From a virus (Duplodnaviria > Heunggongvirae > Uroviricota > Caudoviricetes): a stretch of 34,655 nt of DNA. The number at the start of each line of letters is the position of its first letter. Within the stretch, counting starts at the first letter, position 1. Positions 1-33,362 of the stretch are shown here, one piece after another. Both the position numbers and the translations under genes were made by a program. The stretch is from IMG/VR virus record IMGVR_UViG_2531839666_000023; one strand, given 5' to 3'. The notes beneath the pieces were generated by a model that saw only the letters and a list, made by a program, of their open reading frames with translations, was not told the DNA's origin and searched no databases.

Positions 1-993
1 CTAATCGATGGACAGTTTATGGACACTTTCAGCCAGCGGATTAAAGCTGATTGCATCCTGTAAAAAGTCCGGCGAAAAATGCGCATACGTCATCGTTTGT
101 TGAATCGTGGCATGGCCCAGGATTCGTTGTAGCGTAACGATATTTCCGCCATTCATCATGAAATGTGTAGCGAATGTATGACGCATGACATGGGTGGCCT
201 GCCCTTTCGGCAAGTCCGGCTTCACCTCCTGAAGGATCTCCCGAAATCTGAGGTAATCAGCCTGGTACAACAATCCGGTTCTGCGGGTTTTAATTAACGC
301 AAGTACCGCATCAGAAACGGGAACGGCGCGAGATTTTCCGTTCTTGGTGTTAAAGAACATCACGCGGTTACCTACAATATGTTCCCCACGTAAACCAGCT
401 GCTTCGCCCCACCTTGCCCCCGTGGAAAGACACAGAATGGCAACACGCCGCGCATCTCCATCGAGTCGTTCAAGCAGTCGTTCAATCTCCTCATCTGAAA
501 GAAAGGCCATCTCTGTGTTCCTGACTTTCAGCTTACGTATTCCCCGAACCGGGTTTTCGTTATGGAACACCTCACCCTCAATCAGCGAGCTGAACATTGC
601 AGACAAGGCACACAAATCGCGGTTAATGCTGGAAGGCATTAACCCGGCCTGTAATTTGTCGGACCGGTACCCGAGCATAAATTTTCGCGTCATCTGACTG
701 GCACGAGGATCACCCATCTCACGGTTTATCTTTTCCAGTCTGACCCTGTAGGTATCCCCGTAATCCTGGTTACGACCATCAAGCAACCACCAGGCCTCTA
801 TCAGTTCGGATAACCGACGCTGATCTGCTGGCTTAGCCTGCCATGGCTTATCATGAAAATTCTGCAAAACATACCTTTCAAACTCCTGCGCCTTTGACTT
901 CAGGGTAAAAATCTTACGAATCCGCTTTCCTTCCGTCCCTTGTGGCCTTACATCAACCTTATAACGTCCGTCTTTGAGTTGCTTAATCGACAT
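1..993 (-). CDS. int: Tyrosine integrase, P2 Int-like
   Basis: 330 aa from ATG at 993-991 with GGAGG-like RBS upstream; C-terminal catalytic region (HVMRHTFATHF...LGH...YAH) and overall similarity to P2 Int as recalled; stop codon at 3-1. Confidence 0.9.
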   Translation of the reverse strand: MSIKQLKDGRYKVDVRPQGTEGKRIRKIFTLKSKAQEFERYVLQNFHDKPWQAKPADQRRLSELIEAWWLLDGRNQDYGDTYRVRLEKINREMGDPRASQMTRKFMLGYRSDKLQAGLMPSSINRDLCALSAMFSSLIEGEVFHNENPVRGIRKLKVRNTEMAFLSDEEIERLLERLDGDARRVAILCLSTGARWGEAAGLRGEHIVGNRVMFFNTKNGKSRAVPVSDAVLALIKTRRTGLLYQADYLRFREILQEVKPDLPKGQATHVMRHTFATHFMMNGGNIVTLQRILGHATIQQTMTYAHFSPDFLQDAISFNPLAESVHKLSID

Positions 994-5173: not shown

Positions 5174-5293
5174 GTGATCATCATGCACACACAAAAAACC
5201 GCTTGCCAGCGCTCGTCGTGTCGGGTTACATTTCCGCTGCACCTCATAAAACGGGTGCCGGGATTGCAACCCCCGCCGACTATGCACGCGCAC

Positions 5294-5314
5294 AACCGCG
5301 CCAGCGGTTTTTTT
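5294..5314 (+). terminator. Rho-independent terminator-like hairpin
   Basis: Stem AACCGC, loop GCCA, stem GCGGTT, followed by a 7-T run on the + strand. Confidence 0.45.
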
Positions 5315-5492
5315 GTGCGTACTGTATCGCCACGTCTTTTTCGCATCGAAATTATGGCGGGGCGTACGGGGCCGACTTCGGTCGGGCCGGGTTCGTGCGT
5401 AGCCGGTGGTTGCAACCCTGTACGTCTCGCCACCCAGAATTGCAACCTCTGGATGGTGAGTTTTCAAAACTTACTACGTACGAGGCCACACC

Positions 5493-31536: not shown

Positions 31537-32099
31537 CACGTAATCCCCACGTAAAACGTCGCGTAACGAAGAGATAACCCCGCCAGCCTGATTCGATCCC
31601 CTGACATCAGAAAACGATTTCTGCGCCCCAAAATCGCCGCAAATGGCCGGAAATTTTCGGGGGCGACGTAACGCGTAAAGTGACGTAATCGGCGCTACCC
31701 CGCACACGCCTCCGGTATTTGTGTACGATAAATTTTGCAAATCGAAATGGGTGCAAAACACCCCGCCAGGGCGCGCCATTACTGAGGTTTTCCCTTCTGA
31801 ATGGTTTTGCACTTTGTGCAAGGTTTTGCAAAAGTGTGCAAAAACTCCGGCTTTCTGAGGATCCCGAAAAATTTTAATGCACTGAATAACAAGAGATTTT
31901 TAAAATTACGTCACGATCGAAGATCTGAAAAAGGATCCGGCGACGAAAACGAAAAAATCAGGAAAGCCAGAACTGGCGCGGCCTGGCGGGGAGTGGCAGC
32001 AAAAATCACTTTTGCACACTTTTGCACAACTGCTCCGAAAGAGGATGGCGAAGGGGAAGGAAAACAGCCGGATCATCCGTTGCACGTAACGGACGTAAA
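31537..32099. repeat. Dispersed paired (C/G)ACGTAA heptamer repeats
   Basis: At least seven copies in both orientations, several as pairs spaced ~9-11 bp (e.g. 31537-31543 and 31548-31554; 31665-31671 and 31683-31688; 32083-32089 and 32093-32099). Confidence 0.5.
31733..32028. repeat. Cluster of TTTTGCA(C/A)A boxes (DnaA-box-like) with GATC palindromes
   Basis: Two tandem perfect TTTTGCACA at 32010-32018 and 32020-32028; further copies or near-copies at 31733, 31751, 31805, 31814, 31824 and 31835; GATC palindromes GGATCC 31859-31864, CGATCG 31914-31919, AGATCT 31921-31926, GGATCC 31933-31938; A+T-rich spacer 31866-31910. Confidence 0.5.
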
Positions 32100-32260
32100 A
32101 GGTAAATTACGCGCGGGTGCCTTTCGGCTGACGGCTGGAAGGAATACCTGAAGGCCGGATGTGAAAAGGCCCCGAGTCAACTAACGTTAACCCGAGGCCC
32201 TGACACTTCCTACCTGACAAGTGGAAGGTTAGCGCCTCCCTGTAAAAGGAGTCAAGCGCT

Positions 32261-32401
32261 ATGCCGCAAAAAACGATCATAGTGAGCATTTTATGCATAA
32301 CTATTTTGATGATTGTCTGGATGATACACAAGTCACCGTGTGAGTTCAGGCTTAACATCATGTGGTCACAATTTGCGGCGTTCTTGCAGTGTAAACAGTA
32401 A
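32261..32401 (+). CDS. Hok/Gef-family type I toxin peptide (46 aa), copy 1
   Basis: Hand translation MPQKTIIVSILCITILMIVWMIHKSPCEFRLNIMWSQFAAFLQCKQ; hydrophobic N-terminal helix plus KSxCExR...AAF signature as recalled for Hok-family toxins; below ORF-track cutoff. Confidence 0.65.
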   Translation: MPQKTIIVSILCITILMIVWMIHKSPCEFRLNIMWSQFAAFLQCKQ

Positions 32402-32491
32402 GAAACCGCAGCGGGGGTGAAAGCCCCCGCTATCCGGTTGCCGGGTTCGGTCGATATGGCACCCTTTCTCCGTTGGATTACAGACGTATTT

Positions 32492-32514
32492 GCCCGCGAC
32501 ATGCGGGCCTTTTT
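32492..32514 (+). terminator. Rho-independent terminator after hok-like copy 1
   Basis: GCCCGC-GACAT-GCGGGC hairpin followed by CTTTTT. Confidence 0.6.
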
Positions 32515-32982
32515 GTTCAGTTGTATTTATTGTGGTCGTTACTGGCAGTGGTATTAACTGATTTTGCATGAATAGCACAAATTTTTTCCACGATAACACC
32601 ACACGCTTCAAGATCTTCCGAGCGTGAAACCTTTATTTTTGTAATAGTCTCAGGATTATCAGCCGTTCCACTTTGCACAACCTCAATTTCAATTTTTTTC
32701 TTGAAAGAATCATTTTCATCGCCCCGACACAGGACAGAGTAAGCCTGTGCGAAAGAATATCACCAGTGCGATAGCGTTGTCTGCTTCAACGCCAGGCATT
32801 GCGCACACAAAGGGAAATCAGTACATTACACGCGGGTGCCTTTCGGCTGACGGCTGGAAGGATTACCTGAAGGCCGGATGTGGAAAGGCCCCGAGTAAAA
32901 CATTTGTTTAACCCGAGGCCTAACCCTTCCTACCCTAGACAAGTGGAAGGTTAGCGTCTCCCTGTAAAAGGAGTCAAGCGCT

Positions 32983-33123
32983 ATGCCGCAAAAAACGATC
33001 ATCGTGAGCATTTTATGCTTAACCATGTTGTTGACCGTCTGGATGATACACCGTTCTCCGTGTGAGTTCAGACTTAACATCATGTGGTCAGAATTTGCGG
33101 CGTTCTTGCAGTGTAAACCGTAA
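32983..33123 (+). CDS. Hok/Gef-family type I toxin peptide (46 aa), copy 2
   Basis: Hand translation MPQKTIIVSILCLTMLLTVWMIHRSPCEFRLNIMWSEFAAFLQCKP; same architecture as copy 1. Confidence 0.65.
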   Translation: MPQKTIIVSILCLTMLLTVWMIHRSPCEFRLNIMWSEFAAFLQCKP

Positions 33124-33216
33124 GAAACCGCAGCGGGGGTGAAAGCCCCCGCTATCCGGTTGCCAAAGGTTCGGTCGAAAGTCGCACCCTCACACAAAAG
33201 TCACAAAGAAAAACAA

Positions 33217-33247
33217 AGCCCGCAGCGTAAAAACTGCGGGCTTTTTT
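33217..33247 (+). terminator. Rho-independent terminator after hok-like copy 2
   Basis: AGCCCGCAG-CGTAAAAA-CTGCGGGCT hairpin followed by TTTTTT. Confidence 0.7.
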
Positions 33248-33362
33248 GTTTCAAAGATGGACGTTATCTGGACACACGAAAATAAAAAATCTTTATTTTC
33301 AATATGTTAACCACCCACTAAAACCACCCGCAGGCGCTTTTTAGATTCAGAAAAATTGGGTA

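What the first reader, a model, noticed from the sequence alone, without database searches (positions are those of the whole stretch)
32108..33250. Tandem pair of hok-like type I toxin loci between the prophage and serS
Two ~360 bp units about 720 bp apart each encode a 46 aa peptide with an N-terminal hydrophobic helix and the Hok/Gef-like KSxCExR...AAF signature, and each ends in a GC-rich hairpin and terminator. The peptides are below the 60 aa cutoff and therefore missing from the ORF track, where spurious antisense ORFs (32107-32502, 32826-33197) occupy the space. The copies differ at several residues (for example ITILMIV versus LTMLLTV), so the duplication is not recent. Hok-type loci stabilise mobile DNA and can act in abortive infection, so a duplicated pair flanking a prophage is notable.
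Basis: partly seen in the sequence, partly recalled or inferred. Interest (0 to 1): 0.55.

Follow-up and report, generated by a model that had tools for sequence, protein, structure and literature searches.

The report
Two prophage-borne hok/sok toxin cassettes
The region holds two tandem copies of a known small membrane-toxin plus antisense-RNA cassette (Hok/Sok family) carried at the right end of a P2-family prophage; databases already annotate this family, so the finding is real but ordinary.

Summary
Two direct-repeat units (about 32080-32520 and 32799-33250, 719-722 bp apart) each encode a 46-aa peptide. Both peptides pass Pfam's Hok/Gef cut-off and match PHROG 251.

Each unit has most of the hok/sok RNA anatomy:
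- a closing helix between the 5' and 3' ends of the mRNA (tac/fbi), supported by covariation in 38 homologues;
- a sequestered ribosome-binding site and start codon;
- a predicted antisense RNA of about 60 nt, whose terminator hairpin is more stable on the minus strand in 38 of 38 homologues.

No mok reading frame is present.

The genomic context was misread. Comparison with the empty serS-dmsA site of K-12 puts the attR core at 33327-33334 and integrase arm repeats at 33255-33274. Both units therefore lie inside the P2-family prophage, as cargo next to attP. They neither flank the prophage nor belong to the chromosome.

RefSeq already calls both genes "Hok/Gef family protein". The unit-2 peptide is listed in a 2026 Hok catalogue, which also reports tandem hok "islets" and enrichment of hok in prophages. 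Related arrays hold 1-3 copies.

One point of mild interest: neighbouring copies differ almost only in the Sok/target segment.

Verdict: already known; low interest.

The parts
32080..32520 (+). hok/sok-type cassette 1, from promoter to terminator
   Evidence: Direct repeat with cassette 2. Promoter-like TTGCAC (32080-32085), 17-nt spacer, TAAATT (32103-32108), at the position of the hokW promoter in the alignment. The consensus scan did not report it.
32115..32131 (+). 5' end of hok mRNA 1 (tac-like element, GGGTGCCTTTCGGCTGA)
   Evidence: The Rfam sok/hok-leader match starts at 32115. It pairs with 32447-32464 in the minimum-free-energy (MFE) fold and in the consensus structure.
32163..32219 (-). 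Predicted Sok-like antisense RNA 1 (about 57 nt). Its promoter is TTGACT (complement of 32250-32255), 18-nt spacer, TAACCT (complement of 32226-32231).
   Evidence: The hairpin is far more stable on the minus strand (-25.6 vs -12.0 kcal/mol); fold. The -10 hexamer and start position align with the annotated sokW of 933W. No expression data.
32261..32401 (+). Hok-family toxin ORF 1 (46 aa); SD GGAG at 32248-32251
   Evidence: RefSeq calls the near-identical gene in strain 48 'Hok/Gef family protein'.
32409..32432 (+). GC-rich hairpin just after the stop codon of hok 1
   Evidence: Five covarying pairs in the homologous helix 15.
32447..32464 (+). fbi-like 3' element 1 (TCGGTCGATATGGCACCC), complementary to the mRNA 5' end
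32492..32518 (+). Intrinsic terminator of cassette 1
32520..32795 (-). 276-bp insert between the cassettes, holding a frameshifted small ORF (67 aa when intact)
   Evidence: Absent from arrays with a 471-473 bp period. Present in L001 and L021, where the ORF is intact; in the window a T7 run replaces T8. PHROG 14142, unknown function, E 1.4e-6.
32799..33250 (+). hok/sok-type cassette 2, from promoter to terminator
   Evidence: TTGCGC (32799-32804), 17-nt spacer, TACATT (32822-32827). Rfam leader match 32834-32997, 53.6 bits, E 9e-11. MFE z-score -8.8.
32834..32850 (+). tac-like 5' element of hok mRNA 2
   Evidence: Pairs with 33171-33189.
32882..32941 (-). Predicted Sok-like antisense RNA 2 (about 60 nt). 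Its promoter is TTGACT (complement of 32972-32977), 18-nt spacer, TAACCT (complement of 32948-32953).
   Evidence: No expression data.
32983..33123 (+). Hok-family toxin ORF 2 (46 aa); SD GGAG at 32970-32973
   Evidence: Identical to WP_001135720.1 and to peptide #1307 of the Hok catalogue.
33131..33154 (+). GC-rich hairpin just after the stop codon of hok 2
33171..33189 (+). fbi-like 3' element 2
33215..33250 (.). Bidirectional intrinsic terminator ending cassette 2
33255..33274 (+). attR arm-type direct repeats (GATGGAC-N5-TGGACAC), presumed integrase arm sites
   Evidence: The same motif pair occurs at window 6-25, next to the integrase gene. Function inferred.
33327..33334 (.). attR core (CCCGCAGG) inside the serS terminator
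   Evidence: K-12 sequence resumes at window 33320. The left junction in strain 48 ends at ...GCGCCCGCAGG.
6..25 (+). attL-side arm-type repeats at the end of the integrase gene
   Evidence: Integrase position.

Best explanation
Identity. The region holds two self-contained hok/sok-type type I toxin-antitoxin cassettes. They are carried as cargo ('morons') at the attP-proximal right end of a P2-family prophage that is integrated in the serS terminator.

Anatomy of each cassette:
- a weak sigma-70-like promoter;
- a highly folded mRNA of about 400 nt, whose 5' end (tac) is locked to a 3' element (fbi);
- a Shine-Dalgarno sequence held in a local hairpin;
- an AUG paired with the downstream codons that encode FAAF;
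- a 46-aa Hok-family membrane peptide;
- on the opposite strand, a Sok-like antisense RNA of about 60 nt. Its -35 hexamer overlaps the hok Shine-Dalgarno sequence, and it ends in a strong hairpin plus a short U run.

Mechanism (inferred). By analogy with hok/sok of plasmid R1 and hokW/sokW of prophage Sp5, the unstable antisense RNA would pair with the leader of the stable toxin mRNA. That would keep the mRNA untranslated and mark it for RNase III. Loss of antisense supply would then let the peptide be made and damage the inner membrane.

What is shown and what is inferred. Shown here: family membership of the peptide, the conserved and covarying mRNA fold, the strand-asymmetric antisense hairpin, and the position inside the prophage. 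Inferred: transcription of both RNAs, toxicity of these exact peptides, the mode of repression without mok, and the biological role (prophage retention, help with lysis, or phage exclusion).

Origin of the array. It most likely arose by unequal or inter-phage recombination between hok cassettes. Related prophages carry 1-3 copies.
For: Peptide family:
- Pfam HOK_GEF above its cut-off for both peptides.
- PHROG 251, E 2e-19.
- RefSeq annotation as Hok/Gef family protein.
- The unit-2 peptide is #1307 in the Hok catalogue. Cluster representative 82_1289 appears in its plasmid table, and the three peptides named as non-toxic (3 of 45 tested) do not include it.

mRNA leader and fold:
- Rfam hok-leader hits with E 9e-11 and 5e-6.
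- Collinear alignment with the annotated hokW/mokW/sokW locus, including promoter, GCGGGTGC 5' end, GCACCC 3' element and sok -10 TAACCT.
- MFE folds close the 5' end onto the 3' element, with z-scores -8.8 and -6.2.
- In 38 non-redundant homologues, 97.1% of cells are paired vs 34-43% in slid controls, and 18 pairs change on both sides vs 2-8. All four pairs of helix 10-13/365-368 covary.

Antisense RNA: the hairpin is more stable on the minus strand in 38 of 38 homologues, by 9.7 kcal/mol on average.

Coding conservation: the hok ORF is 46 codons in 37 of 38 homologues.

Context:
- The K-12 empty site places both units inside the insertion.
- Matching arm repeats occur at both ends.
- Sequenced phages P88 and Chuche carry the cassette between the tail/ogr genes and int.
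- Other loci hold arrays of 2-3 copies.
Against: - No expression or toxicity data exist for these two units.
- The Rfam matches are below the gathering score (53.6 and 35.8 vs 59), and nine related loci also fail it. hokW itself scores 113.5.
- NCBIfam HokA/Hok scores are below their cut-offs.
- The consensus promoter scan found no sigma-70-like site, so both promoters rest on alignment with hokW.
- mok, which is required for hok translation in R1, is absent from both units. One or both copies could therefore be translationally silent.
- The MFE of a 3'-truncated mRNA still keeps the SD and AUG paired, so the activation step is not explained.
Confidence: 0.85

Rival explanations
1. The cassettes are decayed relics. 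They are recognisable hok homologues that are no longer expressed as toxins, like several inactivated chromosomal hok loci of K-12. At least unit 1, which has no usable leader ORF, would be such a relic.
For: - No mok frame: the longest leader ORF is 7 codons in unit 1, and 24 codons in unit 2 ending 29 nt before the AUG.
- In R1, mok translation is required for hok translation.
- The promoters are weak by consensus.
- Degenerated chromosomal hok loci are documented (introduction).
Against: - The ORF length is kept at 46 codons in 37 of 38 homologues.
- The SD GGAG, the tac/fbi helix and the antisense hairpin are all intact and covary.
- Only 7 of 38 homologues have an ORF starting at position 45-47 that overlaps hok, so lack of mok is the norm in this subfamily rather than a lesion.
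- A cluster representative appears to have been toxic in the catalogue's assay.
Confidence: 0.12
2. The units are resident chromosomal hok loci next to serS, comparable to hokA-E, and the prophage merely integrated beside them.
For: - The serS-proximal peptide (WP_001135720.1) is identical next to three different prophage right ends.
Against: - K-12 has no hok between serS and dmsA. Its sequence stops at the attL core and resumes at window 33320, downstream of both units.
- Arm-type repeats that match the int-proximal end lie between unit 2 and the core.
- Phage genome records (P88, Chuche, Stx phages) carry the same cassette.
Confidence: 0.03

Closest known systems
hok/mok/sok of plasmid R1 (the type I toxin-antitoxin paradigm; Pfam PF01848, Rfam RF01794)
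   Same: - A small N-terminally hydrophobic peptide with the conserved Cys-Glu motif.
- A long folded mRNA with 5'-3' (tac/fbi) pairing.
- A cis-encoded antisense RNA of about 60 nt in the leader, ending in a terminator hairpin.
- A GC hairpin after the stop codon.
   Different: - The peptide is 46 aa rather than 52.
- There is no overlapping mok frame.
- The leader scores below the Rfam gathering threshold.
- The cassette sits on a prophage, not a plasmid.
hokW/mokW/sokW of Stx2 phage 933W / Sakai prophage 5 (shown experimentally to be a type I TA that aids phage release, PMC8621323)
   Same: - Prophage-borne.
- Collinear promoter, GCGGGTGC 5' end and GCACCC 3' element.
- Antisense promoter with the same -10 hexamer TAACCT, at the same position relative to the hok SD.
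   Different: - HokW is 51 aa and clearly diverged.
- mokW is an in-frame N-terminal extension. Here an in-frame stop lies 6 codons upstream of the AUG.
- sokW is 71 nt.
- It is a different locus: 933W carries hokW and, separately, an unannotated copy of the present 46-aa cassette downstream of lom.
46-aa Hok subfamily: P88 gp52 and Chuche CDS0012 ('MokW-like host killing', PHROG 251); RefSeq WP_001135720.1 and WP_001562544.1; cluster 82 of Escalera-Maurer et al. 2026
   Same: This is the same family. The unit-2 peptide is identical to a catalogued sequence, and the DNA is 73-87% identical to these phage loci.
   Different: Here there are two copies, separated by an extra 276-bp insert. Most phages carry one copy (96.3%).
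Tandemly repeated type I loci with copy-specific antitoxins (ibs/sib, ldr/rdl, zorO-orzO/zorP-orzP)
   Same: - Tandem copies in one intergenic stretch.
- Differences between copies are concentrated where the antisense RNA meets its target.
   Different: - The toxin families are unrelated.
- Discrimination between copies has been tested for those systems, not for these hok units.

Membership tests
Hok/Gef toxin family (Pfam PF01848) | Peptide matches the family profile above the curated cut-off | tested here: met
   26.0 and 27.8 bits vs a cut-off of 22. PHROG 251, E 2e-19.
Hok/Gef toxin family (NCBIfam HokA NF007290 / Hok NF007279) | Score above the NCBIfam curated cut-off | tested here: not met
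   36-38 bits vs 89, and 27 bits vs 73. The units are therefore not HokA equivalogs. RefSeq names the genes only at the family level.
[quoted passage not shown] | Short peptide of about 50 aa with an N-terminal transmembrane helix and a conserved Cys-Glu motif | tested here: met
   46 aa. The hydropathy maximum starts at residue 5. C27-E28 and A39-A40-F41 are invariant in alignment A1.
[quoted passage not shown] | Long structured mRNA whose 5' end (tac) pairs with a 3' element (fbi) | tested here: met
   MFE folds. Consensus helix 1-13/365-379, with four covarying pairs, in 38 homologues.
[quoted passage not shown] | Cis-encoded antisense Sok RNA in the leader, with its own promoter and terminator hairpin | tested here: inconclusive
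   Supported by sequence only. The hairpin favours the minus strand in 38 of 38 homologues. The TTGACT-N18-TAACCT promoter aligns with that of annotated sokW. The consensus scan found no promoter, and there are no transcript data.
[quoted passage not shown] | Overlapping mok reading frame that couples hok translation to the Sok target | tested here: not met
   No leader ORF reaches hok in either unit. There is no start codon at the position aligned with the mokW start, and an in-frame stop lies 6 codons upstream of the AUG.
[quoted passage not shown] | Leader matches the Rfam RF01794 covariance model at the gathering score | tested here: not met
   53.6 and 35.8 bits vs 59, although E is 9e-11 and 5e-6. 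Nine related loci also fail. hokW scores 113.5.
[quoted passage not shown] | The peptide is toxic and the antisense RNA neutralises it | not testable with these tools
   Indirect evidence only. A cluster representative (82_1289) is in the plasmid table of the Hok catalogue. That paper names only three other sequences as non-toxic.
Prophage cargo (moron) of a P2-family phage | Lies within the att-bounded element and occurs in sequenced phage genomes | tested here: met
   attL/attB/attR comparison and arm repeats. P2-family gene set. P88 and Chuche genome records carry the cassette.

The most novel reading that the evidence does not exclude
This 46-aa Hok subfamily may work without mok. Within prophage hok arrays, the antisense/target segment may be exchanged or diversified independently of the toxin gene, so that neighbouring copies are separately controlled (orthogonal) toxin-antitoxin modules rather than redundant duplicates.

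Supporting observations:
- In L021 the two coding sequences are 100% identical, but the Sok segment is only 79% identical.
- Differences fall in a 48-column patch in 14 of 16 cases in L021 and 14 of 20 in L008 (the patch boundaries were chosen after looking at the alignment).
- In the window, cognate Sok/leader duplexes are predicted at about -122 kcal/mol and non-cognate ones at about -77. The longest perfect match is 57-60 nt for cognate pairs and 13 nt for non-cognate pairs.
Probability: 0.3. Interest if true: 0.4.

Novelty: already known. Interest (0 to 1): 0.2.

Why it matters
It matters little for discovery, and mainly for annotation and context.
- The small-ORF cut-off hid two real genes and let spurious antisense ORFs stand in their place.
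- The cassettes belong to the prophage, which corrects the picture of what the phage carries next to attP.
- The Rfam sok model misses this branch of the family at its gathering score.
- If copy-specific antisense segments and mok-independent control were confirmed, hok arrays would join sib/ibs and zor/orz as examples of how duplicated type I systems avoid cross-talk. That would extend a known principle, not establish a new one.

Tried and rejected
- Att-type repeat shared by the hok units and the left prophage end: none was found. The idea that the phage integrates into a chromosomal hok locus was dropped.
- mok: I searched all leader ORFs with ATG, GTG or TTG starts in 38 homologues. Only 7 have an ORF from position 45-47 that overlaps hok, so I rejected a conserved mok. 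The in-frame extension seen in mokW is blocked by a stop codon.
- Activation step: a 3'-truncated mRNA was folded. The 5' end refolds locally, but the SD and AUG stay paired, so there is no clear answer.
- PADLOC defence models: no hit.
- GTDB species-representative scan: only 5 loci (Salmonella, E. albertii and three probably contaminated assemblies), too few to use.
- Literature search for the serS-dmsA integration site: nothing relevant.
- Exact search for hokW primers in 933W positions 1-44000: no hit, because hokW lies at 58460-58615.
- The annotated 'hypothetical' ORF 31801-32151, which overlaps the promoter and 5' end of unit 1: no PHROG match, so I treated it as doubtful.
Full report
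**What is in the sequence.** The window holds two direct-repeat units. The repeat blocks are 32102-32180 vs 32821-32899 (94% identity) and 32216-32442 vs 32938-33164 (93%), spaced 719-722 bp apart. By blastn the shared unit spans about 370 nt at 89.5% identity. Each unit contains a 46-codon ORF on the plus strand, at 32261-32401 and 32983-33123. The peptides differ at 7 of 46 residues. Both have a hydrophobic N-terminal segment starting at residue 5. Each ORF is followed by a GC-rich hairpin (32409-32432 and 33131-33154) and then by an intrinsic-terminator-like site (32492-32508 and 33215-33244). Only 3 of 38 homologous units keep 110 or more open codons on that strand, whereas the hok ORF is 46 codons in 37 of 38. 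I therefore regard the antisense ORFs as spurious.

**Family of the peptides.** Both peptides exceed Pfam's gathering score for HOK_GEF (26.0 and 27.8 bits vs 22). Both match PHROG 251 'MokW-like host killing' with E about 1e-19. They fall below the NCBIfam cut-offs for HokA and Hok and have no PADLOC match. RefSeq annotates both genes as 'Hok/Gef family protein' in E. coli strain 48, whose locus is 97.9% identical to the window. DNA similar to unit 2 occurs in 666 of 5426 complete E. coli genomes, under that same annotation in every listed record. A 2026 preprint cataloguing Hok homologues lists the unit-2 peptide exactly (#1307), and lists a one-residue variant of the unit-1 peptide (#1297). 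A representative of the same 46-aa cluster (82_1289) appears in that paper's plasmid table. The text names only three other sequences as non-toxic, out of 45 tested.

**RNA anatomy, sense strand.** The Rfam 'sok' model (RF01794) in fact models the hok leader on the sense strand. It matches 32834-32997 (53.6 bits, E 9e-11) and 32115-32272 (35.8 bits, E 5e-6). Both scores are below the gathering score of 59. For calibration, the annotated hokW leader of phage 933W scores 113.5 bits, and nine other loci of the 46-aa subfamily give no hit at gathering level. This is therefore a divergent branch that Rfam-based annotation misses.

Both full-length transcripts fold far better than shuffled controls (z -8.8 and -6.2). 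In both, the 5' end GGGUGCCUUUCGGCUGA pairs with a 3' element UCGGUCGA..GCACCC, which is the tac/fbi arrangement of hok mRNAs.

I collected related loci from IMG/VR, GenBank phage records and E. coli genomes and aligned 38 non-redundant units. The RNAalifold consensus keeps this closing helix. In the pair count:
- 97.1% of cells are paired, against 34-43% when partners are slid by 1-3 columns;
- 18 pairs change on both sides, against 2-8 in the slid controls;
- all four pairs of helix 10-13/365-368 covary.

The consensus also holds the SD GGAG in a local hairpin with CUCC. It pairs the start codon region AUGCCGCAA with UUGCGGCGU, the codons for the conserved FAAF motif.

**RNA anatomy, antisense strand.** The leader hairpin at 32168-32201 and 32886-32921 is interrupted by C-A mismatches on the sense strand. 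On the minus strand those positions become G-U pairs and the stem is continuous. In all 38 homologues the minus-strand hairpin is the more stable one, by 9.7 kcal/mol on average. It is followed by UUU(U)C.

Upstream on the minus strand lies TTGACT, an 18-nt spacer, then TAACCT. The -35 hexamer overlaps the hok SD on the other strand. In an alignment with the hokW/mokW/sokW locus annotated in 933W, the two loci are collinear. They share the promoter position, the GCGGGTGC 5' end, the GCACCC 3' element and the same TAACCT hexamer. That hexamer sits 6 nt before the annotated sokW 5' end. The primers listed in PMC8621323 for the 'promoter-less' sokW mutant change that hexamer to GAGCCG (this is my reading of the primer sequences).

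I therefore predict Sok-like RNAs of about 57 and 60 nt at 32163-32219 and 32882-32941 on the minus strand (folds). No transcript data are available. The simple consensus scan reported no sigma-70-like promoter anywhere in the region, so both sense and antisense promoters rest on homology.

**The missing mok.** In R1, translation of hok depends on the overlapping mok frame (review PMC4147584). In 933W, mokW is an in-frame N-terminal extension of hokW. Neither window unit has such a frame:
- the longest leader ORF is 7 codons in unit 1, and 24 codons in unit 2 ending 29 nt before the AUG;
- the position aligned with the mokW start has no start codon;
- an in-frame stop lies 6 codons upstream of the hok AUG.

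Only 7 of 38 homologues have an ORF from position 45-47 that overlaps hok. The defining mok feature is thus tested and not met. How the antisense RNA would block translation here is open; RNase III cleavage, or interference with refolding, are possibilities. A 3'-truncated mRNA refolds at its 5' end but still keeps the SD and AUG paired in the MFE prediction.

**Genomic context.** The window is a P2-family prophage. The near-identical element in strain 48 carries integrase, Cox, replication endonuclease, ogr/Delta, portal, terminase, GPO scaffold and a P2-family capsid. It is inserted between dmsA and serS. The K-12 serS-dmsA intergenic region matches the left junction up to ...GCGCCCGCAGG, and matches the window again only from 33320. 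The core is therefore CCCGCAGG at 33327-33334, inside the serS terminator, and both hok units lie within the inserted DNA.

A pair of direct repeats, GATGGAC-N5-TGGACAC, sits at 33255-33274, between the last hok terminator and the core. The same pair sits at window 6-25, beside the integrase gene. I read these as integrase arm sites of a single attP; this is an inference.

Phage genome records carry the same cassette:
- Chuche has it between ogr and the com/methylase/int genes;
- P88 has it near the end of its genome record;
- lambdoid Stx phages have it downstream of lom, at 78-87% identity.

The units are therefore phage cargo next to attP. They are neither chromosomal loci nor loci flanking the prophage.

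**The array.** The exact arrangement in the window, including a 276-bp insert at 32520-32795, occurs in 7 of 5426 complete E. coli genomes. Copy number varies in relatives:
- strain 154 has three hok genes with a 472-473 bp period before serS;
- strain STEC17-183 has two copies, 471 bp apart, directly after ogr of a different P2-like prophage;
- IMG/VR contigs show further arrays of 2-3 copies.

The serS-proximal peptide is identical in all three genomes. The window's 722-bp spacing equals the usual period of about 472 bp plus the insert. The insert carries a 67-aa minus-strand ORF that is intact in two relatives and frameshifted here. The Hok catalogue already reports that 10% of hok genes lie in islets of 2-6 copies (13.5% in Escherichia) and that hok is enriched in prophages. 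Tandem duplication is a recognised habit of type I loci.

**A side observation.** Neighbouring copies differ mostly in the segment that encodes the antisense RNA and its target. In the window this segment is 73.8% identical, against 96-97% for the flanking leader and 90% for the coding sequence. It is the least conserved segment in all 11 adjacent pairs examined. In L021 the coding sequences are identical and 14 of 16 differences fall in a 48-column patch. In L008 the figure is 14 of 20; the patch boundaries were chosen after inspection, so the p-values are optimistic.

Predicted cognate Sok/leader duplexes are about -122 kcal/mol and non-cognate ones about -77. The longest perfect matches are 57-60 nt and 13 nt respectively. 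There is a trivial explanation: a cis-antisense pair stays complementary whatever mutates, so this segment is free to drift. A more interesting explanation is exchange, or selection for copy-specific control, as known for sib/ibs and zorO/orzO. I cannot decide between them.

**Verdict.** The context was misread, mok is absent, and the arrangement is not unusual for this family. The genes are already annotated in RefSeq, PHROGs and a recent catalogue. I rate the finding as already known and of low interest (0.2). I give a modest chance (0.3) that mok-independent control and copy-specific antisense segments would prove a worthwhile extension of known type I biology.

Noticed in passing
window 5239-5314 and 5350-5437 (+): Rfam finds isrK (56.8 bits) and a C4 antisense RNA (78 bits), both above gathering, in the prophage early region. 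In the near-identical prophage of strain 48, RefSeq places a 'hypothetical protein' CDS on this same stretch (L003 11208-11435). This probably means RNA genes were called as a CDS.
   Followed up: partly
window 31720-32040: At least seven copies of TTTTGCA(A/C)A or its complement, several arranged as short palindromes (TTGCAC-N3-GTGCAA), lie between the last tail-region ORF and hok unit 1. They look like a cluster of binding sites, with no explanation. The annotated 111-116 aa ORF here (31801-32151) has no PHROG match.
   Followed up: partly
window 32520-32795 (-): A 276-bp insert between the two hok units carries a 67-aa ORF. The ORF is intact in L001 and L021 and weakly matches PHROG 14142 (unknown function). 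In the window it is frameshifted by a one-base difference in a T run (T7 vs T8).
   Followed up: partly
L007 1501-1877 (phage 933W, AF125520 45492-45868) and L096 11461-11735: Phage 933W (and the Sp5 record VT2-Sakai) carries two hok-type loci: the annotated and studied hokW/mokW/sokW, and a second 46-aa hok cassette between lom and L0129. The second one is not annotated in the GenBank record.
   Followed up: yes
L021 2326-3505; L008 2068-2995; window 32163-32219 vs 32882-32941: Within hok arrays, differences between neighbouring copies cluster in the Sok/target segment, while the coding sequence can be identical.
   Followed up: partly
window 33319-33345: The prophage integrates in the serS transcription terminator. 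At attR it supplies a replacement half of the hairpin (..AAAACCACCCGCAGGCGCTTTTT), so serS keeps a terminator.
   Followed up: no
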